A stretch of DNA of 64,000 nucleotides from the human T2T-CHM13v2.0 reference genome, Homo sapiens. The position numbers and the translations under genes were made by a program. A model generated the notes under the pieces. It was not told the origin of the DNA. It ran no database searches and saw only the letters and a list, made by a program, of their open reading frames with translations. Shown here in pieces: positions 7,856 to 59,063 of this stretch; within the stretch, counting starts at the first letter, position 1, and each line of letters opens with the position of its first letter. Location of the stretch: NCBI RefSeq assembly GCF_009914755.1, contig NC_060927.1; one strand, given 5' to 3'.

Positions 7856-7998
7856 CTAGTGATGCTGGTATTTGGGGACTGGGCTGTAGAAACACATGTG
7901 ACAGTGGTTAAAAGTAGTAATAGCTGTGATTGCACCTCCCTGGCTCCTTCCCCACTATTGCCTTTGTCTTCATGGAAATATGGAGAGCGTTTCATGTG
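7856..7998 (+). pseudogene. Decayed EGF-repeat exon, xSDAGIWGLGCRNTCDSG*..SNSCD...CLCLHG
   Basis: ttctttgcaa|ct agt gat parallels the intact ttgcag|ct tgt at 58932-58942. WGLGC, SCD and CLCL motifs occur in order, with frameshifts. Confidence 0.6.
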
Positions 7999-12315: not shown

Positions 12316-12998
12316 TGAATCTGTATATGGCTGAATGTAGGCATGACATTAATTTTTTGCAGAGTGTAATATTTCCGTATTTTAATATCCATCCTTTAAA
12401 ATATTTAATTTTGAGTTTTGGAAGAGAATGAAATTTGAGCACCTATATGCAACAAGCAGACTGAGTACGGAATAACTAGGAGAGCAGGTGAAAAACGTGA
12501 ATGATGTGGGACAAATAAGAAATTCTGAACACTGTGTGCAGCCCATCAATTGCAATGAGGACCTGGGGAGTTGTAACCTATGAAACTGTAGATGCTGTTG
12601 CTGTACTGTGAAGCACTACTGCTCTGACAGGCTCTCTGAGCTCCCATTCCACCTAGCACACGTGGCAATAAAGTGCAGCACATGGAATCCATATTAGAGC
12701 AATAGCTGCATCTTCAAAAAAACGTTTTAATGACTTTTCTAGTCTGCATTTAGAAGGATGATTTTAGATCTTACATCTTATCTTTTTCTAGGTTAATGTG
12801 CCTTCCCCCTCAGATCCCTGCATTTGGGGAAATTTCTGTGATGGTATACTCCCAGAGAGTATTGTGTCTCATTCAAAATACCCTTAGGAAACCTTTGATC
12901 TAGAATGTAAGTTCAGCAGCCAGAATCAGAATTGAATGCTTGTGGTGGTGTGAGAAGTCTGCATATATTCGGAAAGTTGTATAGGGACATTTTGTGTC

Positions 12999-26227: not shown

Positions 26228-27285
26228 AGGGCTGGTGATGGTAGTCCTGCCCCTCCCCTTTGTCTCTGGCTGTCCTTAGGGGTATTTCTGTCTTCAGGCA
26301 CTTTTTTTTTTATTATTTTGGTAAATTATTTTATTTCTTGCATGATGATTTGGAGGAACTATCTTCAAACCAGTACAAATATTTCATAAATAGCATGTGG
26401 CCATTTTCTAACCAATTGAGTAATTTGTTGCACAATAAGCCTCTTCACATCTTTCAGCAAGATATACATTGAATTTGAATAGTAAAGACATTACGCAATA
26501 AATTAGGACACAATTAAAATTTGCTTTAAATATTTCTTTGGGGGAGAGGACACCACACTTCCACTCAATGAAAAGAAACACTTTTGCAGTCCAGAGGTCT
26601 TTTACTTTTCTATACCTATTTGCCATGAATCCATAGCGACTGGGTTCCGGCAGCTCAGGCTCCTTCTCACTGGTTCTCCCAAAGTGTGCATCTCTGGGTG
26701 GAGCAGGCTGGCACTTCTCTTGAACCCAGGTGACTTTCTCTTTGGCTTTCTTCTTTTCTGATCATTTTCCTTCACAAGTTTCAGGAAGCTGCCTCAGCCC
26801 TTAAAGTGCTTAATATGCTCAATATGAACAATAATTCTCCTGACAAGAACCTTGCCCATAACTTGTTTGCTTACAACAGTGCCAACAGCATGCTGTGTAA
26901 CATTGTAGACCCTCCCAGTTTTGCCTTCGTAACACTTGTAGGACATTCCTTTTTGATCAGTATTCATTCCCTGGATGTCTACAATATCACCTTTCTTATA
27001 AACTCTCATGTACATGTCCAAAGGAACAGCTCCATGTTTTCTAAAAGGCCTAGAGAACACGTATCAAGTGCCTCTCCTCTTTCCCTTTGTGTTCATTTTG
27101 GTGAATTACTAGAAAATGGCAGTTCTGGCCCAAAGGAAGCCAGGCGCTTTCATTGTTCCCTGTTGGTTGAGACAGAGACAGCATTGAAAGGGAACCCTGC
27201 CAGGGAACACAAGATGGTGGGCTGTCCACCTCGATCTCACTTTTTTCAGTGTAAAATCCCTGACCGAGGGGAAATTTTCCATAGA
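26228..27285 (-). mobile_element. Second L1 5'UTR fragment (26228-26300 plus 27141-27285), split by the RPL21 retrocopy
   Basis: Both pieces align in order to the L1 5'UTR at 25204-25415. Confidence 0.7.
26302..27139 (-). pseudogene. RPL21: Processed pseudogene of ribosomal protein L21
   Basis: Minus-strand translation [29 protein letters not shown] matches RPL21. No introns, pyrimidine-rich 5' start, ATG at 27096, early TGA (27066-27064), poly(A) from 26302, TSD-like CAGGC(A/G)CTTT flanks. Confidence 0.96.
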
Positions 27286-30327: not shown

Positions 30328-33229
30328 TGCTCACATTAAATGCTGTTGTGCTATAGTTCTAGCTATAGTTCTATAGTTTCATAGTTTCTACATAATGAGA
30401 AACTTGGCTAAGTAATTTCTTCCTTTTGGAAAATCTATCCATTAATAGAACATCAGTAAAGGCTGGGAAACATTGTGGTTGAATTAAAAATTAAAATTTA
30501 GATCTTGTATAAGAAGGATGAGTTCTAACAGTGACTTTTATACTTTTTCTTCTGGCAGCTCTAGCTTCTTGTCTTTGACCTTTGTGCTTTAATTTACGTG
30601 CTTGTTAGGAATAAAGTTACTTATTGCTATTCTTGCCAGCTTTATGCCAGGGCCTGGGCCAGCTGTTGTTTAAACATTATCTCTAATGCCTGACAGCACA
30701 ATGTGTGGTAAGTATTGTCATCTTTATTTTGCAGAGCTAGGATAGAAGCCAAATCTCACCAAGTCCCTTATTTTTCCATTATACTATGGTACACACTGTG
30801 TATGGTAAGGCTGTCATAGAATGTCTTTAACTAGATGGCACTGAGGTTTAAAATAATATGTTTCAACAAGTTGGTACTGAATAATGCTTAAGACCACCAT
30901 AAAAATTGTTAAAGAGTAACTGTCTTAATATATATGATTCTCTAATCTAGCTTTTATCTTTTTTGAAGCTTGCATCTAACAAAACCTGCTTTACCCCTTT
31001 CTTGTTTTGTTTGATACTAGAAACAAAATTTATGGAATGAATTTTGGGTATCCAAAAATATTTGTCCTACTTCTTTAGAAAAGTGTAAGTTTCAATCCAA
31101 TGGAGTAATCTAATATGTGAACCTGTTATCAAAACCCGGTGTAAGTGACAGGTTTCAAGTGTTTTAATAAACTCAAAAGTTTAAAGAAAAATAAATTTCT
31201 CCCCAATGTATAGTGAATAACAAGCTATGTTTTGTTTTCTTCAACCTGAGTTGAGAATACGCCACATAATGATAGATCTAGTCCCTTCACATATATTTGA
31301 ACACACATAGTTCAAGACCCAAGTGGATTCTATCAGTTTTCAAATTAAGGCAAAAATTTATGTCTCCAAATTCAGGACTGTTCAAAGGCAGTCTTAGCCA
31401 AGAGACACCTCTGTTATTTTTTCCATGACTGTTTAAATTCCAAATAATAAGACTATATTTTTTTCTGAGCCTGGAAGTCTATGATAATTACACATTGTCT
31501 TTTGATACAGTTTATCTTTAAACAAACTTCAGACAGGTCAGAATAAATTGTTTTAATGTTAGATTGTAACAAATTGCTAGGCATATCATCATGTACTGCA
31601 AATAAATGTACACGTCCACGAAATAGGAAAAATTGGGCAGAGGTGAATTCAACCACCCAGCCATTTACATGAAATAGCATTGCTCAATGCCATTTTTAAC
31701 TTCCAGCTTTGTCTAGATGAGCTCATTCAAGTTCACCTCAGTTGGGTGAACTGAGGAATCTGGAGATTAAGATCCCATGCATGTGTGTGACTGGGTTCAG
31801 TTAGAATAACATTTTCTTCCTGCAGATCATTAATTAGAATGTTTTTAAAGGCAAAACAAAGCACACAAAACACAGTTTGCTGAAAATGATGTTAGTTTAT
31901 TTACTTTGAAAAATCTACTTCTATAAATTCATATACTAAAAAATAAATTAAAAGATAAAAATGATGTCCTAATATATTTCCTATTGAGAAAGCAAAATAA
32001 TTAGCAATCTTCATTAGTTGTCTAGAAAAATAATTTCCTCTTCAAGAAAGTTGCCTCTATTTGCTAAGCTGTTCTAACCAAATTTCCCTTTATCACACAT
32101 GAAATTTAACTGGAAATACTAGTGGTCTGTTCTCACTTGATTTTTCTGCATAAGAGTTTAAAAGGCAGGGTTACTATGTAATCTAGTCTGGTAAATTCTT
32201 TTTTGCCTAGGCAAAAACACCAGTTTACTTGTTAAAGATGATGAAGAGTTAAGTCCAGAGTTCATATCACAATCTTATCCCATGACACTCCCTCCCCCTT
32301 TCACTTGATGAAAATATGCTCATGTGAAGTGAATTCTGAAACTGAATCCGCTGAACATGCTCAGCATTTGGTACCAGATTTGTACTGTGACATTCAAACT
32401 TCTGCCATGGCTATTGCAATGTAAATAGGAAATTCTAAATGTGATTTGAATTGCCCTTTGGGGAGTTTTACAATGAGAGACGGTACATTTCCAAGGTAGC
32501 CCATAGTTAATATGGAGCAAGTCACAGTGGTCGGGTTGGAGACTGTTCTGCTTCGGAGCACAGGTTGACAGGAAACTCTGCACGCCTTCAACCGGACCGA
32601 GGGAATTCGGCGGTTGACATAGCCATGTATAGTTCTGAAATATTTTCTCTTGTTAGAAATGTTTTAAATTAGCCCATGAAAATAAGCACCTTTATTATTC
32701 ACATACAGTGATTCAGTTTGGAGGTGACAGCTGTCTACATGGATCGTAGTGTAGAGATTGGCATAAGCAACGACTGTTTTTTAATTAGCAACAAGCTTTT
32801 GTAATTATTAGAGGTCAGCATTTCCTGTAATTGAATCATGTATGCTAGCAAATATACTCTCACAGCAAGCTGGTGTGCTCAGACCTTTCCCACGAAATGC
32901 AACTATTAGGTACCATCGTGTTGCACACAGAAAATGCATGGTAAGTTCGGATTGTACAAAGATATTTCCAAGATTCTGAAAGAACTACATTCAATGGCAT
33001 TGAATTTTATATATGTTGTGATATTAAATGATATAAAATTCTAGTTCTTTCTACCTATAAATTTAGACGTTGAGACTTTTAAGAAAAGTGCATTGCTGAA
33101 GTTCTCCACAAGAGGGCCATAGCTCCCTCATTCTTTTAAATTTGGATTCAAGCTCAAAAAAAAAAGTAAATGCTATTATTTTCTCCTCAAACTTGTTGTT
33201 TCATGTATCTTATATATATCATAAATATG

Positions 33230-33830: not shown

Positions 33831-36020
33831 TGAAAGGAAAAAAATAATATCTTGGCAGTAGTTAAAAGTTCTAGGTCTGTGATAACTTTCTCCAATTAAT
33901 TATTTAACTATCCCAATTAAATTTTTTTTACTTTCAAAACTGTGTTTCACAAATTTTATCAAAGATGGAAGCAGAGTGACCAGAAAAGACATCACTGGGC
34001 AAACTGACCTGGCTTCCATAAACTAGTGAGAGTAAAACCAGTGCTATATCTAAGTAAGTGCTTAGTAGTTGCTACAATAATTTTATATCATTTGAAAATT
34101 TTTGTTTATTATAAAAACTGTATAAAATACGGTGGTCAGACATTAGTATTCCTATCATACAAATTAGACTGAATATTTGGACAATGTTCTTTTTACTTCT
34201 TCGTTATTATGATCATCAATTTAAAGAACTTCAATAAAGAAACTTGAAGTTTCTTATCTAAATTTTACTTAACCTTCCAAGCCTGTTTTTTCCTTTCTCC
34301 TTAGAGAATGTCTATCACAATTTGCCCATTCTTTTCTTTTCATTCTAAGCTACAACACCCACCCTTTCCTCTCAGTTTTTAGCAAAGAACAAAATGCCCA
34401 GAATTGAAATGTCAAGTATTTTTTTCCTAACAAAATATTTTTATTACTAGATTAAATATACACCCAAAGTAGCAGATTGAAAATAATTACAACAGAAGCT
34501 GGCTAGTTTACTGAACCAGCTTTGTTCACTTTCCTTGGAGGAAAAACTGGTTATTTCAGTGATAGCCATATATATTATACATGACCTAAAACTATCCCAT
34601 CAAGTGACAAGCCCATTTTGGAAAAGCGCAAAGCAGGCAAGGCATATCTACTGCCATTGCAACCATCCCCATATTTTTCCCATCTGAGTGCTTCTTTCCT
34701 CCTTTCCCCTGCCACCTAACTATGTTTAGTTTTGTCCCAGCAATCTCTACAGGGAGTGAAATATTCTGATTTTTCATATTAGTTGAATATATCTACTGAG
34801 GTGTGGAGGGTGCCTCAAAGGAGAGCTTCTCTTAAGGGAATACTTTAAGGAGTGGTGAGCAGGAGATGTGTTTTCAAGCACTGAATATTTCATAAGTGGT
34901 TTCTGTGCCTGCTTGCATGGACCATCTCTGGCTCTATGTAAATGCAAAATGCCAGATGTAGAAAAATAAGATAGTAAAGAAGTATTAGAGGTACTAGAGT
35001 AACACTGTCTTTTTGTTTGTTTGTTTTTATGTTATGGTTTGTGTTTTCTCTGGGTGTTTCGTTTGATTGTTTTTGTTTTATTTTGTTTTTGTCACTTATA
35101 CTTCAAGCTTTAGAATAGTATGTTCTAAATCCACATTCCAGCTTTTGTGGATATGTGGATTTTGTTAGACTTTGGCTGGTGCTGAGGACACAGCCCCTCC
35201 TTCCTGTCTCCTAACCCAACCAGATAAGAATCAGTGTAACTTACATGCCTCAATCATTTCTTATTTTGAGATCTCTGAATTTTTAGGTTGTCCTATTTCC
35301 ATTTTTTGTTATTAACTAAATTATTTGAGAAAAAGGAGATGAAATGAAGTGGGATTGTTATTATTAGCCGTCAATTTGTGAACTTCAAAATATGGCATTG
35401 CTACAAAAGGAAAATACATATGAACCAGGAAAAATGAGTTAGTTATATATATGGATATGGTTTTTGTTTGTGAGAAATGAGTTATGTATATGGGATGAAT
35501 TCCTGAGTGTGAATGTTGTTATAAAAGTAATAATTTAATAAAAATGCATTTATACAAATCAGAAAGAAAAGAGACTTGTATAGATAAACCAGAATTTATT
35601 TCATCCTTGTGCTGTAGTTTTTGTGTTGAAAAATGTGATTTTGGATTAAAAGCTCCAGCTGTGCAGTAATGTCTTATCAGTTGTGTAGCAATGTCTTATC
35701 AGTTGTGTAAAATAACCTTTGGACTGAATATTTCTTAATCATTCTATATTCTCCATAACATATATTGTGCATAAAATTCTCCATGCTTCATGTTAGAGAT
35801 GTAATGAATAATTTGACAGAGGGTCAAATGCTTTTAAACACGATTGACGAAACTATTTTTAAAAATTAAAGGTTTCCAAGTGGTTGAAAAGTATATGCCC
35901 AGAAGCCTAGAAACAGAGTTGGTTCATTTGCCAGATACTAAAAAAGTACACAGAAACAGGTTCTATATTAAAGGAAAAAGAGAGAGAGAAAGAAGCTGAT
36001 TTGTTATTTTCCATTTTCAA

Positions 36021-36135
36021 CTTGTTCAGGTGGATTTTTGTGGCTGGAATTGTCATCAAGTGTGTGACTGTCGCTCTATCTGAGGGGCTCCTCACTGCCT
36101 CCCTGCCTGGGCTGGAGTCAAAGACAGCAATAGAA
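36021..36135 (+). pseudogene. Disrupted EGF-repeat exon, xCSGGF-fs-CGWNCHQVCDCRSI*GAPHCLPAWAGVK
   Basis: Polypyrimidine tract with acceptor mutated to AA (ttttcaa|ct tgt). GWNCHQVCDC and HCLPAWAG motifs, with an internal deletion. Confidence 0.78.
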
Positions 36136-37992: not shown

Positions 37993-40900
37993 TCACATAT
38001 ACTTCATTTGAGTATATAATGAAGTGAATGCAATAAATATGAACAATTTAACAAACTTTTGCTCATATATTGGAAAAGTAAAAAGAAACCTCAAAACTGA
38101 ATTTTATAAGCATTTCAAAAAATCATAAATGCATTTTAATTTCTACCTCTAGTTTCTAGCTAAAACTCAGTGGAAAAAGTAGAGTTGGTATCTTACACCA
38201 AAAGCAATAATGACCTGTTATTATTGAAACTTCCAAGTCTTTCTTTTCCTCAGTTATGGATCCACACTGCCTCAATTCAGTTCAACCAACATTTAAGGAA
38301 ATTGCAGTCTAACTCATGACATGATGAAATTTAACGTAATTGTAAAATTTTTATTTGAAGATCATGTTTGGCCCGGCCTTAGCTCCTGCCTAACCAACTT
38401 CACTACACCGCTTTCACTTACCAAAATTGCTTGTCTTTTCCAGACCAAATTCTTTCCCCTTGTCTCACTGTTAGCGACCTTTTTGCTCCCACCCCTCTTA
38501 TCTTGATCTAAATCTTGCAAGTAAACCCACTACAAAATATAAATAACTGATTTCATTTGGTTGCAGCAAGGAAGTTGAGACAATATTACTTACATTTCTG
38601 GATAGTTTCCCTTTTGTTGTTTCACTCATAATCAGAAAAACTTTGTTCCCAAGAACTATGCAATTAGCAAGCTCTCAGAATGACCCTATTTATTCATCAA
38701 ACTATTTGAACCTATGGCAAAGTTTGTTCCTTCGTATTTTATTAAACTCAATTAAGTAATGGGGTCTTTTGTCATCAGTTTCAACTTCATCTTCCGAGGA
38801 AAACCCACTGCACTTTGCAGTTTGTAAGATGCCAACCATTCATTGCTTTGTGGTGTTGAAGGTAATTTGATTTATGTCTTGCTCCAGTTAAGATGCCCAG
38901 GTCTTTAAGCATTTTTGACTCAGAGTTAGAGACTAAGGTCAAGTTAACAATGGTAATCTGTCTCTCTGTTTGCAAACAATGAATCATCATTTGGATTTTA
39001 AGATTGTATGGTAAGCTTTGACTTGGCAGCTTGGTTCAAAGGTTGTCAGCAAAATGTATAACAGTGGCCTGTTTCTGGAACCTCTGATCATAGACGGCAA
39101 GGATTTTCTAACAAGGCCACCAATATAGTTGTGAATAATTGGTAAGAAGGGGGTGTGGTTAAAGAAACATTAGTCCCATGCCCAAGTTACACTGGATTGA
39201 TTTGATCCAGACTTAATAATATTAAAAGCTTCTCTAGTCATTCCCGGGACACAAACGATAATGCTTTCAAATTATTAAGAAAGACTATGACTTATTCAGG
39301 ACAATATGTAAAAAGAGACTGATAAAATGAAGTACATAGTTCATTTCAATTTCTTACTTTAGACCAAGTAAACTGCCACTAGGAAGGGAGAGAGCTTCAT
39401 TGAGAGTTATAGTATTTTATTACTAATTGAATTGGAGTTTATTTTGAAGAGTTGGCAGTTAAAGTAGCTGAAGTTGAGATTAACAATTCATAAAAGTTAG
39501 GGGCCAATTTCCTCAAACATCTTGTTCTTATTCGTAAGGAATTCAGACAAAGAAGTGACTGAAATAAAGAAAACCCTGAGATCTGGTCAACTTTGAGCTT
39601 TTCCCACATAACCTTAGTACATATGGCATATTAATTATTGAATTAATATTTGCAAATTGAGTGAATGAATCTTTATAAAATACTTATGTGTGAATCTTTG
39701 TATCTTTCTTTAAAATACCAGTGTCAAGAAAAGGACATATGTTTTCACAAGCCGTGATCTGAAAGCATGATTCTATGATTTGAACTGACAAGAATCTACT
39801 TACTCTCCTGTGGTTATTTGATTGTATTGCATCATGCAAAGTAACATTAACTGGTACTTTTATAGTTCTATTTTTTTCCATTTATTTATCCATAGTGATA
39901 AAGAGGGGATAATACTCAAATGGCCAAACAGAACCTGCGCAGGTCAGAATTTGAGCTGGTCACTGATAAAGAAATTTCATTAGTATATTGGATTATCATT
40001 TGTTGACTTTCACTTGACCTTCATGATGATATAAAGAAATCTTTTTATTAAAGATTTATTTTATATGGATACTCAAAATTAACATTCCAGGACCATAGCA
40101 AAAAAGCAAGTGCCTCTCTCTGGTAGCAGCTCTGAAAAGAGGAGATAGTTACTATTAATTATGCTGCTTTTACCTCCCATATTCTGTAAGTATTCTAAAT
40201 GTATTCTTGCATATACATTTAAGGGAGTATTAAGATTCTTGAGCTGAATCACAAACACTCAGGTATTTTGGATTCAAGGGCTTCTTTCCTACTAAGTAAG
40301 CACCTCCTCTTCCTGGCCCCTTCTTGTCTAATTAACATATTGCTCATTACCTAGTCTGTTTGGGTTCTAAATGGGTATTGCTAACACTTTCATTACATTT
40401 CGAAGGAGAATTCTTGCTTCAAGTATGACTGCTGCAATCTACTAACTCAGGGCATTGAACATGGGTGTTCCTTTTTTGTGTACAACTCCTGTCCTTTAAA
40501 TTCCACATATCTTGAAGAAAGTCGTTCCTGGTGACATAGCATTTCAAACTTAATGCCTAATTGTTTCATAGAAAAGAAAATTATAGGATCTAATCTAACT
40601 TGTTAGTTACTATGGTTTTACATATAGCAGGACCAACTTGTTATATATGCATACGGAGTAGATTGTACCAGATTTCTGTTATTAGTGATGCTTTACTGAT
40701 CATTTTTGTTTCAAAAATATTTTAATTTTAATACTAAATGGAGCCATGGAAATTACAGAAGGCAATATGGTCCTCAGAGATGAGGTAACATTTTTAGGGT
40801 AACACAGGCAAGAATCAATAACTCTCAGCCGTCTTTCTAGACCTCTTCTCACTGAACTATACTGATTCTTTGAAATGAAGTAAGGACATGGGTCATAGAT

Positions 40901-42785
40901 CCTTCTGCAAGTGCCCATAAATCAATATTGTATGTTCATAGTCTCCTGTTAGTGTACTTGTAGTAATTTCTGGGACACAGTATCTTATCATGAGTGAGAA
41001 TGCTGACTCTGATTGTATAAACTTTGGACCAATGACTTCACATTCGTTTCCTTACTTTCCTCTGTAAAATGAAAATAATAATAGTTGTTCCCTCAAGCGG
41101 TTGTTTTGGTCATCAAATGAGATAATACAAGCAGAGAGTTTAGAACAATGCCTGACACATAGTAGATACTCAGAAAATGTCAACTATTTTCATTGTGATC
41201 CTTTCCTCTAGTCTCCATGGCATTCATTTGTTAAACTGATATCTGGTCATTTTTACCTTCTATTTCTGCAAAGTTCTCTTTTACCCCTTCCTCCCTTGAG
41301 TTCATGCATTCTGAAAATTTGCTGAAGGTTAGTATCCTCACCACAGGTATTTTGACCATGCTACTTATTTTTGCCTTTTAGCAACTGGACAAAATACAAG
41401 AAAAAATGGAAAACATGCATGAATAAATTAACCCTTGGTTTTACTGGATGGGTATATATCTTCCAGGAGTATTCATATAATCTATTAGCATTATATTAAA
41501 ATTTTAATATTTCAGAATTTAGATTCATTGTTCAGTTTTTGTCTGGAGCACTGATAGGGGAAACTATTGCTAGGTATTTATGGGCACTATCCACACATTG
41601 GGAGGATGGCAACTACCAAATTTCACAAATGAGACAGCAGCTGTCATCAGTGCCCTTGGGGATGCCATGCTAACAATAGTAAATAAGGTGCCCATTGCAA
41701 AAAGGAACATTATCACTTTGAATTCAGCACTGAAACACTATGAACATTTCCTTAGAGATTGTTCCCTAGATGAGCATATACTCAGAAAACAAGCCTAAAA
41801 GGAATGAACCAGGTAGAGCTTATTTTCAGGACCTGTCCTAGAGCCATGGCCTTAGGACCATCCCTCTTTTCTGATACACATGCTCATGTTGCTTCCCAAC
41901 CTTCAGCCCCCAGAACATCCACAATCTGTATCTCTTACAATGCCTCTGCTCTGTCTTGTGCCTTCCCTATCCAGTGCTCCTACTTAAAAGGCAAGCTGAA
42001 AAAGCTTGTTTTTATAAACATAAGGAAGTCAACATGTTGATTCAGATGTGACTATTTGCTGTAGCCTTCTAAAGTCAATGTCTTAATATTTTTAATCTAT
42101 TCATAACTAGAATGTGAGAATCTTAGGCCATTTTAGAAGAGCAAGGTCATATGGCAAGAATAAACAATGACAACAAACAATGGAATAAATATTTAGGAAC
42201 AGATAGAGCCTCTCCTCTGGTTTCTTACACAATCTGTCATCAGTACTTTCCGTAACACCTCAAAAAGATCTTTTGGCATAGCTTCTGTCCCCATTCTTTT
42301 CAAGATATCTGGTTCTGCTTCATGTTGTCTCTTGCTGGAATGCTGGCAATGGCCCCAATTGGGCTATCATCCTCCAATCCAATATGCACATTGTCATCAG
42401 TCTGATCATGACATTCCTATGGCTACCTACGCACCTAAGATTAAGCCTTCAGCAAGGTGTTAAAAACCCGTCACTTTTAAGGAATCACACAACTCTCCAA
42501 CATCAAACGTGTCCCTAAATCCTGTCCTCTAGCCATGAAGCAAATGTAATTATCACTTTGAATAAAACACTTTACTTATTTACACTGTTTCTTCTGACTG
42601 GTGAATTTCTATTCACTCTTCTAGCCCCAATTCTAATGCTACCATGTAAGGACACCCTGATTCCCTCCTGATGGTGTTGACTATTATTTAGGATGCTTTC
42701 ATCCTTTTTACAAGTCTCTGTTAGTAGCACTTGTCAGATTGTTCTGTGTTAATTTTTCACGTATCTTCCTGAATCAGTCTATTGA

Positions 42786-44188: not shown

Positions 44189-45068
44189 ATTTCCACCAAA
44201 GAGTCACTAAGTTAGAATCACCCAGGGGAGGCCAGGCCATGCATTTTTAGCAAAAAGCTTGCCAGTGATTCCGAGAGACACTGGCCTGAGCTAAATCTAT
44301 TCTCCATGATATCATGATATATTTGAGGTCTCTGGGCCTCTACTTCTGTCTGTCTGGCAGGCCCCCACCCTCATGGAGCTGTGGAGACTCTCATCCCACT
44401 CCAGTCTTTCTCCTTTAATAGGCTGTGAGAACTAGGAACATTGTTTCAAGAAACAATCAGATCAGTAGCTGACATCATAGGTCTTCCTGAAAGAAAGGAA
44501 AGAGATGCAGAGCAGAGATAAGACCAAAAAAGTCCCCAAATGCACATGGGCTGCTGGTAATCACAGCTAGCACTGAGGCTATCTGCAACTTCTTGAACTT
44601 TAAGAGGGACCCAGTCATTCTGGTGTCCTGACTCCCAAGTATTTATTCTCTGACTGAGGCATAAAGATCCGGGTGAGCTAATGCATCATCCGATGAAAAA
44701 TGAACAATTAAAACAATGAAGTTGTCGGTTCTTTTACCAGATTGCAAATAAATAACCTGCCTGTCAGACTGGCTGCTCTGCTGGACCATTAGTTTAATAC
44801 AAAGACATTCTGAGGAACGGGTGGATGACAGCTGATCTATCACCCCAGTGGTTCCAGGCCTTTGATAAAGACCTGAGCAAAAAATGCTGTCATAAACCAC
44901 AAAAGGTCAATCCCAATTTGTGGGAAGCAAAGTATTAAATGAAATTTGAATACACCCCTCTGCCCATCATGAAAGCCATAGGCTTTTTTTTTTTTTTTTA
45001 ACCGGCAGGGTGTTGGATAGTTCTTTTAACAAACCGAAACACTTTTCTTTCTGCATATGCTTATTTAG

Positions 45069-45197
45069 CTTGTTAGAGACATTGTGCTGGTATATATGGC
45101 CATGGAGTTTGTAATTGCCACAGTGGAGGGAATGTGATCTTAGACTCCACAATGTATCTTCTTGCCAGGCTGAACAGGGTCTTACTACAAGGTGGTA
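45069..45197 (+). pseudogene. Disrupted EGF-repeat exon, xC*RHCAGIYGHGVCNCHSGG-fs-CDLRLH-fs-CIFLPG*TGSYYK
   Basis: tttag|ct tgt acceptor, correct Cys/Gly spacing, LPG*TG motif, and gtaaga at 45198 (span 129 bp). Confidence 0.82.
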
Positions 45198-51111: not shown

Positions 51112-51243
51112 TTTGTCCACCAGGCACATATAGAAAGGACTGTAACCAGGTATGTCAGTGTTCAGCCAAGAATGAGGACTGTCACCCAGTCACAGGGAGA
51201 TGCACCTGTCTGCCTGGCTACCATGTAAACCACTGTCTTCTCC
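51112..51243 (+). pseudogene. EGF-repeat exon remnant (132 bp), xCPPGTYRKDCNQVCQCSAKNEDCHPVTGRCTCLPGYHVNHCLL
   Basis: Polypyrimidine tract plus AG at 51110-51111, open frame, all 8 Cys kept. The expected donor reads c|atgtgt (GT>AT). Confidence 0.93.
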
Positions 51244-53957
51244 ATGTGTGTGTTCTGTGCTCAGCTATAATTTATTGAGGAGGCACTGGTAGGGTGGGTC
51301 ATCACTCAGAATACCAAAGGGCAAATGTTAATTCAAGCTTCTAATTCACAGCAAATTCTGTTAGAATTTATATTTGAATAATTGAAAACATATACTTTTT
51401 TTGTAACTCATTCTTCTATTTTGCCTTTTCTATTCAAAATATCCCCAAGTTCTTCACAAATATCCAACATGAAAAGAGATAAAAAAGAGAAAGAAAAAAT
51501 GAGAAAACATAGACTTATTATTATAAATCAACATACAACAAACTACTATATATTTCAAGTAATTCGCAAAGTAAGTTAATTCCAGGGTCTGCTTAGGAAC
51601 AATTAAATTAAGCAAATTGTTATTCTGGAATGAAAATGATGACTAGCTTAAATGACCAAATGCCAGTTGGCTCCTTATTGTGTAATAAAAAAGAATAGTC
51701 CCTAGACCAAACACCTTACATTGATTTTTTAAAGGATATTTTAACATTGAAAATGGTTATAGAAGAATGCACAAAAAAAGTCCCAAGGAGCTTGTTAAAA
51801 TGTTCAGCCAGCTACTTATTTTTTAAGCTTGTAATTATTTATAATGTACTTTTTATAGATTTAATTTTTCCCCCAACTTGGCAACTGCTGCTCTCTTTCC
51901 TCCCTAGTCATTCCTATAGCAGATTCCTTTTACTTTCCTAATTCTACAAGGATATGAATAATTTGGGGATTTTTCTCCTCGAACCAAAAATATAGACTCC
52001 TGGTCAAGCTATTGATTTTAGTTTTTTATAAGCCGTTGAATATATATTTTGAATATTACTTCCCTATTTTTTCCTAATGTTAAACATTACCAGCTAAAAA
52101 CACAATTAAACATGTATGAAAATGGTTTCAATTACTGATTGCTTGGGATCTATAACCACTGAAGTTATTCAAACTTAAAATGAAGAACTAAAATATAAAA
52201 TTAATCAATTTCTGTTCGTTTTTGGTTATGGCAAATTTCAAGCATCCTTGTATTGCAAGAAGGAAAGTTATTTCCTACATTTGATTCAAATGTCTCAGAA
52301 AGAATTTCTTCTTTATATCAAGGATGTTTTGTCTTAATAAAATAATATCAAGTTACATGTAACTGGGTTGCACTTTTATTTCAGAAGGCAAGCTACCTTT
52401 AGTTGAAAGAGGTAGCTTTACCTCATAAAAAGTGAGGCTGGCTGAGTCAGGGAACTGCTCTCTGACTAGTCAAATTGGCTTATTTCCAGGCAACACGTGG
52501 TTGGATGTGGCTGCAAGGATTCCTTGGCAACATCCACTATAATTACAGGACTATGAAAAAAGATTCAAGAAAATATCCATAAAAGGTGTAGCTGGCTTAA
52601 AAACAAAACTTTCAGCAGCCAAGAACAACTGGGCTTTCATGTTCTCAACTTCAGAATGGAGAATCAAAATTTTCTCTCAGCAGAGGTCAGAGGAAGCAGA
52701 CAAACTTACAGTAGAATCTCATCACTTTTCATAATTCAGAGGATAGATGGGTCAGTCCTAACTTGTGGATAGCATGTAGGAAAAACAACAATTCCTGTTA
52801 GATGTAAACTCATAGTGCTATGTATTTTATGACCAATAAGAGGTTTTAAAGTGACCACAGACCCTGGAAACCTTTTATTTCTCCAACCCGTATGCAATAC
52901 ATGTTATTTACAGTCACTCTCTTTGAGGATATTTAAGGCATTAGAGTCCTCTATAACTATGGTCACTTCTTTTAACAGTATTCATAAGAACACCCCCACA
53001 CTTGGTATAGAATGCTTTGAGAAGCATGGGCCACACAGTAGTCACCAGTGCCAAGAGAAAGATATCAAGACACTCACAGAAGTTGAGTTTTAATGCTATT
53101 GCTCATAGCAATAAAAATTCAGACAGACCAAATGTCAGTATCTCCTTTTAAGAATAAAGCCAAACAGCATAACAATGGCTGGTGTATCTGAGTAACCTGA
53201 TCAAATACTAAGAAAACAGACTCTGTGGAAAACAGATTCATGCTTTTCATTTCTTGAGAGCTACGTGTGTCAGGATGCAGTCATAGCCTTGTTTAAGTTT
53301 CTAATGATAGTACCAAAGGCCGCTCACATAATAATAGTATACAGTAGCAGAGGGGCTTGGCATTTAACCTTTAATATTTAAATAAATCAGAACTGTAAAT
53401 TCCCATCCAAGCTTCTTCTTGGAATGAGAATTCAAGAGAAGGGGATGTGCAAGGATGGGAAAAGATAGTCACCTTATAATGGAAAATAACTAAACACAAC
53501 TTGCCAGAAATACAAAATTTCCAGGGAGAAATAATTGTAAAGGATAGAGGAAAGGCCAAGTAAAGATCAAAATGGATTTAGGAAATGAGGGAAGGGACGA
53601 GCCAAATAAAATCATTGTGTCCTGGGTGTGCGTTTTCTTGTTAAATTTAGCGAACATTTGAGCAAGTGCTGTGTGCATGATTCCAGAATCCAAACTTCAC
53701 TTAGCACAGAATTGGATAGGGAAGTGAAATTGTCAATAAAATAATTTACTCTTGGAAAAAAAATGTCATTGGCACATCTATAAACACATATCATACTCTT
53801 GATACAAATTTAATGAGTTTTGGGACTAAGAGGTTAGCACAGATACTGTTTTTCAAACAGATGGCTCACTCATTAGTAGGTTAATTTCATCAAGTTCAGT
53901 TTCCCAATTTCAAAAGTATAATTAAGTTGAAGGCTAAAAATCAGATGATGTTCAAGT

Positions 53958-54482
53958 ATATACACATATATATACATATATATACACACACACACATATA
54001 TATACATATATATACACACACACATATATACATATATACACACACACATATATATACATATATACACACACACATATATATACATATATATACACACACA
54101 TATATACATATATACACACACACATATATACATATATACACACACACATATATATACATATATATACACACACACATATATATACATATACACACACACA
54201 TATATACATATATACACACACACATATATATACATATATATACACACACACATATATACATATATACACACACACATATATACATATATATACACACACA
54301 TATATATACATATATACACACACATATATATACATATATATACACACACACATACATATACATATATACACACACGTATATATACATATATATATACACA
54401 CACGTATATATACATATATATACACACACACATATATATATACATATATACACACACACACGTATATATACATATATATATG
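53958..54482. repeat. ~520-bp (TA)n(CA)n minisatellite, unit ~22-28 bp
   Basis: About 20 copies of TATATACACACACACATATATACATA-type units. Confidence 0.95.
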
Positions 54483-56084
54483 AAGAAAGAACAACAAAGG
54501 GTGATTCTATCAAATATAAAACCATCATTAAGAAAGTTTGGAAAATAGGTTCATATCAGAGGAAAATTATGTTTTCTAAGTAACTGATTCACATGAAAAT
54601 TATCTCAAAATCTAGACCTTCACCTATATCAGTTATTTAAATTCCTCAATTACACAAGCTGTTTTTTCCTTTCAACTGAGATACTGATTCTTTGATACTT
54701 GTAATTATATCTACAGCGTAACATTTCCCTCCATTACAACACAAGTTTCACTCTTTGTTGTGTTGCTCCTTTCCTTACTTGCATAGAAATTCATGTTATC
54801 TTTCCTTTCACAGTAATATCACTGCAGAGTTTTCTATACCAGCCAACTCTTACTAATTTTACCTCCTTTTTTGAAAGCAACATGCCAGCAGTGCACATCA
54901 GACCTTAAAGTTTCAATTGCCATATTTTCAGCTTGTTTCATGCATTTTTCTCTAATCTCAAGCAACCAAATGTTCTTTTTCAGCATCACATTTATTTTAC
55001 TATATTAGTAACTTAATAAAAACTGTAAATACTTACATTCTCAAAACTGACCCAAATGGATGTGAAAGAAGCATTTTATATATTGGTGAATGGTAGAAGA
55101 GAAGGTGATGGAGACTTTTTTAAAAAATCACTAATTTTGTTTTTAGGTACACTCACTGACTTTGTTTTTAGTACACTCAAATTGTTATAAGTGAGAGAGA
55201 AAAAGAACTACTTGGGAGGACTAAAAAAAATGCTGTGCACAAAAAAAAAAGGGCAATTAGCTATGAAAACTGACATCCCTTGATGGGAGGAAATGACAGG
55301 AGAGAATATGAAGTAAACCCATTGTTTTTCACAGAAAGCAATAAAGAAATACAACAGCTGTACAGATGAATAACCTTTGGTATGAACAGTTTTAAAGTGT
55401 TTGCTTCCCATCTCCATAATGGAGAATTTCATTTTTAACTGGAATGAAAAGGGAGGAAAGAAGCAGCCACTCTTTGAGTCTATAAGCAAATCTGAGACTC
55501 AAGATGCGAATTTTGAATTTGGAGATAGGATATACATGGGGATTGTAAAATTTTGAATCTCAACAAAAACCATTCCTTGGCCATTATTTATCTCTTACAC
55601 AGTATCATCACAGTAGGCTGTACCTCCCTGGATATGAAAGTAAAAAATTGAAAAACTGACATAAAATGAAGAGGCATCCTCTATATCTGGTTTCTTTTTG
55701 AATTCTTACATGTATTAAACCCAGATAATTCCAGACAAGACAAGCTATAGCACTTAAATATTTAAAATAATGAACTTTTCTAGGTTGAAATTAGATAGCC
55801 TTGTTCAGTGAATTGTCTCCTAAGCACTTTTAAAAAGTAGGTAGATTCCCAAGGAAGCACAAAGTTAAGTCATACCTTATTAATGGGCAGCATCAAATAC
55901 TAACAATTATCTGTATCGTCTCATATCCTCAGATAACTCCATGCCTTGAATCAACAGCTTGAAAGTGATTGAAAATACCAGTAGAAATTGGAATGTTGAG
56001 TTAACCACATGTCTACTGGTGTGAATTTAAACATTGGTTGCTGTAAGTTACAATACCACATATGGTTTTGTTCTCCTTTAACAG

Positions 56085-56212
56085 GATACCCGAAAGGCAC
56101 GTATAGTCCATATTGCCAAAAGATGTGTAAGTGACTAACTGTGGCATCTGTGACGCCATGATTGGCACCTGTATCTTCTCTCCTGGCTTCACTGGGGCTG
56201 ACTGAAGTCAAA
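56085..56212 (+). pseudogene. Disrupted EGF-repeat exon (128 bp), xYPKGTYSPYCQKMCK*L-fs-CGICDAMIGTCIFSPGFTGAD*SQ
   Basis: AG at 56083-56084, TGA at two Cys positions (56132, 56203), a 1-bp deletion (128 = 129-1), and a donor reading ttaagt instead of gtaagt. Confidence 0.9.
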
Positions 56213-57152
56213 TTAAGTTATTCTTACCTTTTATGGAGTGGATATGCTGATCATTCCAAGGCCCAATACTGTTAGCAAAAGTACTAAAGCTGAGAGCTGG
56301 CATTTTTAAGAACTGTAATTAAAGAGTAAATGTTGTTGCAATTATTTTACTTCCTAATTTACAGTACTAACAGCAAACACAAACTGACCTAAACTCTAGG
56401 TTGAAGAATATTTATGTAGGAGTTTGGTTGAGAGCTACAGTCAGTGAAAGTAGCCAAAGAGATCTTTTTGGTGATAACCCCCCTTGCCCCAGGAACGCTA
56501 GACTCAAGTCAGTATTAGAAATTATGTTTGCCAAGATCAGAGCAGACTTAAGATTCCTGTGTTCACAATGTCAAACTCATTGTCTAAAGTTCCACAATTT
56601 CATTTATGCTCAGCAATTTCCTAGCTCAAAAGTAAGTGGTTTCCCTGCTCATCAAAAAGTAAACAGTTTCCTGAAAGCCAAAGACCTTAAATTAACTACT
56701 TATCACAAAAACAACTATTGACATAAAGTTTAAGGCACTGGATTGAAGAGCCCTTACAAATGCACAGGCTTAGACACTCTGAGGATATGACTACCAAGTA
56801 TATTTTGTTTTTGTTTTTTTTTTCAGATCTGCCATTTTAAAAATATTTATATAGTTTTGCTTAACCCAAATAACTCAACCCATAGTCATACACTCTGACT
56901 CCTCTGACCCTTCAGGTGACAGTCAGAATGAAACACTCACATATGAAGCCACGATTATGATAATTTCTAGGGAGGATAAAAGAGGCAATGAGCAGGAGAG
57001 TGCATTGTGGGGAAGTCAGTTCTGGCAATACTGTATTTTTGACATGGGTGTTACGAATGAGGATGTTCACTTTGTCATCATCCATTGAACTGCACATTTG
57101 TGTTTTTGTGCTTTATTCTGTAATCTTATTAATTAAAAAAGTACCTCCAATA

Positions 57153-57464
<312 letters not shown>

Positions 57465-58359
57465 TTAAAATAAAGATGGAAGTACTGCCTTAACACACAC
57501 CTCAACATAAGTAAACTAGATTGTGAAATACCTTCATTTGAGATTCCTTCATTTGGATGAAGGATAGCTAAATTTGTCACTAGACAGGGTACTACACTGT
57601 TATGTGTTAAAGACACCCAAAATGCTTATGTTTCCTGGTCAGTCAGTTGCTTTGTCTGCTTTGGAGGAGGGTAATTTTTCTGTTAAAGTGCCCTGCAGGC
57701 CTCAGTGCTCTGCTGTATTGAGAATAAAAGACAAGACAAAACCTGGCTCCAGGTAGCAGACAACTGACACCTAGTGGATAGTGCCTCCTGAGGCCTCAAT
57801 TGGCAAGTTATCTTTCAATTAAGGCCAACCTATAAAGGCCAACCTATAAACAGTTCTTAAGCAAGGTTCTGTCTGGTTCCTTTGTATTTATTCTTCAAAG
57901 AGAGTAAGTGGAAGAAATGTCCTTCTGCCAAAGCATTTTCAAAGCTGTGGTTTCTCTGAACATTGCGGGTACTTTGGTCTTAAGAAAGTTGTGATCTTGT
58001 ACCTGAGCACTTTCCATTTGCTTTGACAGCTTAGTAGGGTAGAGCCAAATTTGCAACCCACCTCTTAAATGTTCCAAAAAATATGATATTTATTTTATAT
58101 TATTACCACATTTTCCCTTTATGTGATTCTCAACAGATATTTATTTTGTCTTTGTGTATTTATATATATTTTGGTAAGCATCTGAATGAATTTGTGGAAT
58201 GAAGTTGCAAAAAACCACCAAACAAATTAATAAATACAAATATATAAATGAATATTTGAAGATATGAGCATAATGAATCTTATATTTATATATAGGAACT
58301 TTAGCTAAAATTCTAGAATGGGCTTTAAGAGAACATACTCAAGAATATTATAAATATAT

Positions 58360-58565
58360 ATTTGTTGTATATATTATACATACATATATAACATAATATA
58401 TGTACACATAATATTCCTACATGTGTTATATAACATATATGTACACATGATATACCTACATATACTATATAACATAATATATGTAATATACATACACATG
58501 CATATGTGTGTAATATATACATATGCATACATATATAGAGAGACACACACACACGCACACACACT
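58360..58565. repeat. TA/CA-rich low-complexity repeat
   Basis: Repeated tataacata(a)tatatgta units, then (GA)(CA). Confidence 0.75.
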
Positions 58566-58937
58566 CTTACACTTGCTAAGACAGAGACACATGGCAAAGC
58601 AAAACAATCCAAATTGGGAACAGTTGAGGTCCTTAATTTGTAAGAGACATTTATATTATATGTAAGTTTTTGACACTAGATATTTAGTTGAAAATTCCTA
58701 ACGCCAACTAAAATGGCTCTATGTAAGCAACAATTTAAACAGTCCCTTGTTTTTCTTTGTTTATTTCTAAGTAACTTTTCACATTGAAAATCAAACTAAA
58801 AGCAAGTCAGTAAAACCTATTTGATTAAATGAAAATGTCATGTATTTCACAAGTTTTAAAAAATCTTGTCTGGCAAAATGTTTAATAAGAAAAATCTGGT
58901 TTTGTTTTGCTCTGTTTTATTTTGCTCTTACTTGCAG

Positions 58938-59063
58938 CTTGTCCTGAAGATCACTATGGGCAGAACTGTGTTCAATGGCGTTCCTGTGGCTCAGGACAGT
59001 GTGACCCAGTGACTGGAGTGTGTCAGTGTCCACCTGGCCGAATGGGAACCAGGTGTCAGGAAG
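58938..59063 (+). pseudogene. EGF-repeat exon remnant (126 bp), xCPEDHYGQNCVQWRSCGSGQCDPVTGVCQCPPGRMGTRCQE
   Basis: Intact ttgcag acceptor and g|gtaaca donor, open frame, 7 of 8 Cys (one TGT>CGT). Confidence 0.93.

What the first reader, a model, noticed from the sequence alone, without database searches (positions are those of the whole stretch)
51112..59063. Three consecutive exons splice in phase and rebuild MEGF6-like junction residues
Joining 51112-51243, 56085-56212 and 58938-59063 gives junction codons C|GA (Arg) and A|CT (Thr), then G|. This reads ..GYHxxxC-xx-R(C)PKG..CDAxxG..T-CPE..CDPVTGxCxCPPGRxGxRC. It matches three consecutive MEGF6 repeats as recalled from memory (unverified), implying no exon is missing here.
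Basis: partly seen in the sequence, partly recalled or inferred. Interest (0 to 1): 0.7.

Follow-up and report, generated by a model that had tools for sequence, protein, structure and literature searches.

The report
Unannotated tail of dead EGFEM1 gene
These are three broken exons of EGFEM1P, a known dead human gene related to MEGF6; they lie past the gene's annotated end, and its last exons sit inside the separately named lncRNA LINC02082, so the two names likely cover one old gene.

Summary
The three exons are real. They match MEGF6 repeat exons 16, 17 and 18 in order, with the same junction residues, so no exon is missing between them. They cannot splice in phase today. The donors of exons A and B read AT and TT instead of GT. 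Exon B is 128 nt (1-nt deletion) with two stops. The gene is EGFEM1, a MEGF6 paralogue, not MEGF6. A vole protein named EGFEM1 maps as one ordered chain from the annotated EGFEM1P through exons A and C. Pooled repeats are 70-79% identical to mammalian EGFEM1-type proteins and 52% to human MEGF6. The annotated end of EGFEM1P falls on an Alu poly(A) run, likely a priming artefact. Four further exons, including the likely old stop codon, lie inside LINC02082, and a published LINC02082 primer sits in one of them. Both RNAs are reported raised in papillary thyroid cancer. The middle repeats are far more decayed, which suggests the gene shrank first and died later. This is an ordinary unitary pseudogene with an annotation gap. 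One shared transcript is plausible but untested.

The parts
51112..51243 (+). Exon A: EGFEM1 laminin-type EGF repeat matching MEGF6 repeat 16; open, 8 of 8 Cys; acceptor AG intact
   Evidence: 86% identical to bat model P0010
51244..51245 (+). Dead donor of exon A (AT in place of GT); nearest GT is 2 nt on and out of frame
56085..56212 (+). Exon B: repeat 17; 128 nt (1-nt deletion near 56135), TGA at 56132 and 56203, 4 of 8 Cys lost
56213..56214 (+). Dead donor of exon B (TT in place of GT; rest of the donor consensus kept)
58938..59063 (+). Exon C: repeat 18; open, AG and GT intact, one Cys is Arg (58979); 126 nt, and its 41-residue repeat is as long as the bat's
36020..36120 (+). Older, heavily decayed remnant of a middle repeat exon (repeat 11)
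   Evidence: frameshift-aware score 69-70 with owl and quail repeats against 45-51 on the opposite strand
45068..45195 (+). Decayed repeat-exon remnant (repeat 13/14-like), stops and frameshifts; assignment weak
   Evidence: match to bat model residues 886-924, E=1e-9; profile score within the null range; read by eye
7858..7950 (+). Possible remnant of repeat 9; weak
   Evidence: score 60 against 47 opposite strand with one fish query, 53 against 57 with owl

Best explanation
The three exons are broken coding exons of the EGFEM1 gene lying beyond the annotated end of the pseudogene EGFEM1P, likely decaying without selection since the gene died in an early primate ancestor. Shown: the order and phase match MEGF6, the exons map in one chain with the 5' part of EGFEM1P, and the lesions are as listed. 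Inferred: EGFEM1 was a secreted EMI + EGF + 23-repeat protein like MEGF6. Every repeat exon is phase 1-1, so whole repeats could drop out without breaking the frame. Repeats 5, 6 and 8-15 likely dropped out early in placental mammals, and the remaining exons died later on the human line. The RefSeq end likely comes from oligo-dT priming on an Alu A-run, which leaves this stretch unannotated.
For: Vole EGFEM1 (P0015) maps in order on chr3+ at 14 places from 171093196 to 171687078, including A (82%) and C (68%). Proteins named EGFEM1 in vole, bison and flying fox match the cheetah A-B-C region at 72-83% identity over 66-100% of it; a second vole isoform that skips A gives 50%. The gorilla protein named EGFEM1 is 98% identical to C. 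Tree of 11 repeats, 17 rows: the human locus falls in the mammalian EGFEM1 group (bootstrap 99), and human MEGF6 is on the other side of a split with support 95. In 12 recognisable exons, 15 of 96 bat cysteines are lost and 6 of 23 splice sites are non-canonical; 4 exons lost no Cys against 3.1 expected under even decay. None of 8 longer placental models has an intact repeat 5, 6 or 8-15 (the bat and vole 'R8' rows are repeat 7 by eye; one bat 'R13' row scores only 72), while owl and fish have most of them. The annotated end is the last A of a 15-A Alu run with no poly(A) hexamer in 60 nt upstream.
Against: Exon A is open with 8 of 8 Cys and C is open with both splice sites, so residual use is not excluded. 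B's assignment margin is thin (90 against 82). The orthologue proteins are automatic gene models and a sparse sample, with no marsupial or non-ape primate seen. Several are named MEGF6 (cats, owl, bat). B is not listed, which used a stricter first look. No RNA data were available. The tree is unrooted. Repeat 20 was not found in human DNA above the null. The date rests on a recalled substitution rate.
Confidence: 0.92

Rival explanations
1. A short protein is still made: repeats 1, 4, 7 (inner acceptor) and exon C are spliced, skipping the dead exons A and B, giving a 181-residue Cys-rich protein as in the gorilla model.
For: That exon chain uses only canonical sites and is open in human DNA, 178 of 181 residues identical to gorilla P0004; the cluster has 4 members.
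Against: It starts at an internal Met, so it has no signal peptide. It ends by reading into the intron. Repeat 7 has lost 2 Cys and C has lost 1. Decay across the exons looks even. The model is automatic, and human-gorilla identity is expected without selection.
Confidence: 0.05
2. The exons are a separate, unprocessed duplicate pseudogene of MEGF6 that happens to lie next to EGFEM1P.
For: Junction codons and order match MEGF6. Several orthologues are named MEGF6. The stretch lies outside the annotated EGFEM1P.
Against: 52% identity to human MEGF6 against 70-79% to mammalian EGFEM1-type proteins; tree position; one colinear chain with the 5' exons.
Confidence: 0.02

Closest known systems
EGFEM1P (human transcribed pseudogene; protein-coding Egfem1 models in vole, bison, bats, killifish)
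   Same: Same locus, same strand, one ordered exon chain; orthologous proteins contain these repeats.
   Different: The RefSeq human span stops 52 kb before exon A; these exons and four more in LINC02082 are not part of the annotated gene in the table given.
MEGF6 (chr1, 23 laminin-type EGF repeat exons reconstructed)
   Same: Repeat order, phase 1-1 exons, lengths 132/129, junction residues Arg and Thr.
   Different: A paralogue, about 52% identical and intact; its repeat-18 exon is 129 nt against 126; its repeat 16-18 exons span about 1.2 kb against 8 kb here.
Unitary pseudogenes (Zhang et al. 2010, PMC2864566)
   Same: A dead gene with working-looking orthologues elsewhere and no working copy in human.
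   Different: Egfem1, 6130401L20Rik, C3orf50 and Megf6 were not found in that paper's main text or its one held supplement; here the gene seems to have shrunk internally before it died.

Membership tests
EGFEM1 orthologue | Closer to proteins named EGFEM1 than to MEGF6 | tested here: met
   70-79% against 52.5%; tree support 99 and 95
EGFEM1 orthologue | Colinear with the EMI and EGF exons of EGFEM1P on the same strand | tested here: met
EGFEM1 orthologue | Conserved neighbours (MECOM) in other species | not testable with these tools
   No genomic context for the vertebrate proteins; the MECOM/PRDM16 pairing is recalled, and one search found 0 papers with all four terms
Unitary pseudogene | Disabling lesions in the human copy | tested here: met
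   2 stops, 2-3 frameshifts, 6 of 23 non-canonical splice sites
Unitary pseudogene | No intact duplicate elsewhere in the genome | tested here: met
   Genome searches return only this locus at high identity; hits elsewhere are 30-66% identical; only the best candidates are scored
Unitary pseudogene | Functional orthologue in other species | tested here: inconclusive
   Bat and vole models keep 8 of 8 Cys in repeats 16-18, but they are predictions and no functional test was seen
MEGF6 gene or direct duplicate | Groups with MEGF6 orthologues | tested here: not met
Laminin-type EGF repeat (PF00053) | Score at or above the curated cut-off of 21 bits | tested here: inconclusive
   C 22.6 (met), A 20.6 (just under); the open half of B gave only a weak EGF_Teneurin match

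The most novel reading that the evidence does not exclude
EGFEM1P and LINC02082, studied as two separate thyroid-cancer lncRNA markers, are the 5' and 3' parts of one ~660-kb transcription unit of the dead EGFEM1 gene, with exon C as an unannotated bridge; and EGFEM1 is a gene that lost ten middle repeats in early placental mammals and has since been dying separately in primates, cats, bears and whales.
Probability: 0.45. Interest if true: 0.45.

Novelty: already known. Interest (0 to 1): 0.27.

Why it matters
Mainly an annotation fix. The dead gene runs about 80 kb past its RefSeq end and takes in part of LINC02082. If both RNAs come from one promoter, papers that treat them as independent thyroid-cancer markers, or that assign microRNA-sponge roles to an intron-derived end, are measuring one locus. 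The gene is also a tidy case of in-frame exons being lost as modules before the gene died.

Tried and rejected
Remnant scan: hits at window ~9320, 20408, 37846, 47875 and chr3:171615630 fall in masked repeats or Alu sequence, and ~9614 is a TA-rich simple repeat; all rejected. Window 12533 and 34898 look Cys-rich but score within or near the null. Repeats 6, 8, 10, 12, 15 and 20 were not found above the null outside such repeats. The pooled scan is barely above the opposite strand (36 against 34), so only the repeat-11 and repeat-5 remnants are called with some confidence. Nearby alternative GT donors for A and B do not give the old frame. Rfam: 0 matches at gathering score in the 64 kb. PDB: nearest is SCARF1 (E=5.9e-9); no MEGF6 or EGFEM1 chain among 10 hits. 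Literature searches with no paper: 'unitary pseudogene'+EGFEM1P, EGFEM1+MEGF6, four-term gene-loss search, Megf6+paralog+Mecom+Prdm16. LINC02082+EGFEM1P gave 1 paper that only lists both among altered genes. Most of the 580 kb upstream and the DNA beyond chr3:171695700 were not read, so the 5' lesions and the true 3' end are open. No fold was run: the fold class is clear and the exons are dead.

Full report
1. Observation. The three segments exist at the stated coordinates, each after a pyrimidine tract and AG. Exon A (132 nt) and exon C (126 nt) are open Cys-rich repeats that Pfam scores as laminin-type EGF (20.6 and 22.6 bits, cut-off 21). Exon B is 128 nt, reads in two frames, and has TGA at 56132 and 56203. 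The bases after A are AT and after B are TT; only C has GT. Joined as they stand, the frame stops 16 codons into B, and the nearest other GT sites are out of frame. The phase match is a record of the ancestral gene, not of present splicing.

2. Test against MEGF6. I read 160 kb of chr1 and cut out 23 repeat exons, all AG..GT and phase 1-1; the name MEGF6 for this locus is from its position and content as I recall them. A, B and C score best against repeats 16, 17 and 18 (148 v 102, 90 v 82, 142 v 128). MEGF6 has CGA and ACC at those junctions; the window has CGA and ACT. The margin for B is thin, but orthologues settle it: the cheetah, one cat, one bat and one vole model run A-B-C without a gap.

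3. Which gene. A search with exon C gave 9 proteins among 10 candidates, 76-98% identical, from cats, panda, whales and a gorilla protein named EGFEM1 (one entry bears only a code). A search with the cheetah A-B-C region gave 18 of 55, led by a bat model (79%), with vole, bison and flying-fox proteins named EGFEM1 at 72-83%. The vole protein maps on chr3+ as one ordered chain of 14 matches from 171093196, inside annotated EGFEM1P, through A and C to 171687078 (B not listed, stricter first look). In an unrooted tree of 11 repeats (475 columns, 17 rows) the human locus sits among mammalian EGFEM1 proteins (99), and human MEGF6 sits with a second bat, flycatcher and turbot megf6b across a split with support 95. 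Identity is 70-79% against 52.5%. Left out of the tree: P0001, P0002, P0004, P0005, P0009, P0014, P0024 (short or redundant), the invertebrates and MEGF10/11/PEAR1. The owl and cat proteins named MEGF6 fall on the EGFEM1 side, so those names look wrong.

4. The rest of the gene. Repeats 1-4 and 7 lie inside annotated EGFEM1P. Repeats 19 (chr3:171686927-171687055, GC donor), 21 (171690324-171690453, 1-nt insertion), 22 (171692209-171692337, acceptor damaged) and 23 (171694991-171695175, running on to a stop) lie beyond the window, inside the LINC02082 span. In these 12 exons with A-C, 15 of 96 bat cysteines are lost (16%, interval 9-24%) and 6 of 23 splice sites are non-canonical, one being GC, which may still work. 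Four exons lost no Cys, against 3.1 expected under even decay, so exon A's good state needs no selection. This is roughly 0.07-0.13 changes per site. With a substitution rate recalled from memory, that puts the death tens of millions of years back, likely early in primates; this date is weak. The gorilla model also skips repeats 2, 3, 16 and 17, which fits shared lesions.

5. Two stages. Owl and fish models have most of repeats 5, 6 and 8-15 intact. None of 8 longer placental models (two bat Myotis, two vole, bison, flying fox, sheep, cat) does, apart from rows that labels R8 and that I read by eye as repeat 7, and one low-scoring bat row. In human DNA these repeats survive only as faint traces: repeat 5 at chr3:171606500-630 (57 v 34 opposite strand; nearly all Cys gone), repeat 11 at window ~36020 (69-70 v 45-51), and weaker ones at ~7860 and ~45070. 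I infer that these in-frame exons were shed early in placental mammals. Cat, panda, whale and sheep models also lack cysteines in the remaining repeats, which hints at repeated decay. All of this rests on few automatic models.

6. Why it is unannotated. The RefSeq end of EGFEM1P (chr3:171614565) is the last A of a 15-A run ending a sense Alu, with no AATAAA or ATTAAA in the 60 nt before it (Alu recognised by eye). That is the usual sign of oligo-dT priming on genomic A-runs (established knowledge). A published EGFEM1P primer (PMC6246933, passages) maps 1.1 kb before that end, where I found no repeat exon. The annotated LINC02082 start lies inside an antisense Alu just past its T-run and AG, which looks more like a cut-short internal exon than a promoter (inference).

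7. LINC02082. The forward primer in PMC9483125 (passages) lies in the repeat-22 exon. The reverse site is 2.36 kb on, in a non-homologous stretch behind an AG; splicing from the repeat-22 donor would give about 100 bp. So LINC02082 likely uses an EGFEM1 exon. EGFEM1P is reported up about 6.8-fold in papillary thyroid cancer (PMC6246933; also PMC9650597, passages) and LINC02082 about 40-fold. Against a simple link: the fold changes differ and come from different analyses, PMC10627595 (passages) found weak diagnostic value (AUC 0.58), and I saw no RNA reads or exon list for LINC02082.

8. What is known. EGFEM1P is a named pseudogene, and these exons are annotated as EGFEM1 in other mammals. Searches for a paper tying it to MEGF6, to gene loss or to LINC02082 found none; some searches were seen as listings only, and PMC6931392 showed no match in its main text. 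PMC2864566 does not name it in its main text or one held supplement. Large supplements of gene-loss screens, subscription papers and GENCODE were not seen and may already hold this.

9. Verdict. A real but ordinary feature: the unannotated 3' part of a known unitary pseudogene (0.92). A residual 181-residue product that skips A and B is not excluded (0.05). The one-transcript reading with LINC02082 is the part worth testing (0.45).

Noticed in passing
L022:1327-1455, L023:424-553, L023:2309-2437, L023:5091-5275 (chr3:171686927-171695175, beyond the window): The last four recognisable EGFEM1 exons (repeats 19, 21, 22, 23 and the likely old stop codon) lie inside the annotated span of LINC02082.
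   Followed up: yes
chr3:171614551-171614565 (L025; window about -1435): The annotated 3' end of EGFEM1P is the last base of a genomic Alu A-run with no poly(A) signal: likely internal priming.
   Followed up: partly
L023:2309-2437 and L023:4696-4722 (chr3:171692209 and 171694596): Published LINC02082 primers span the repeat-22 exon and a cryptic exon 2.3 kb downstream.
   Followed up: partly
L022:200-400 (chr3:171685800-171686000): The annotated LINC02082 start lies in an antisense Alu that carries a short internal tandem duplication.
   Followed up: no
window 58979-58981: One cysteine of exon C is Arg in human, the whale models and panda but Cys in gorilla, cats, bats and vole; a CpG site that has likely changed more than once, direction unknown.
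   Followed up: no
proteins P0002, P0006-P0008, P0014, P0035: Database entries named MEGF6 in cats, Myotis lucifugus and owl look like EGFEM1 orthologues; owl and one cat were placed in the tree.
   Followed up: partly
window 12882-12932, 30650-30718, 35878-35904, 38235-38291, 41667-41738: Short matches to non-repeat stretches of the bat and panda models; likely orthologous intron DNA that those automatic models took in, though one or two may be very old exon remnants.
   Followed up: no
PMC9650597 Table II: The forward and reverse primers listed for EGFEM1P are exact reverse complements of each other, which cannot give a PCR product; that paper's expression data deserve caution.
   Followed up: no
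window 26588-27138: The annotated RPL21P43 pseudogene sits on the minus strand inside the old EGFEM1 intron region.
   Followed up: no
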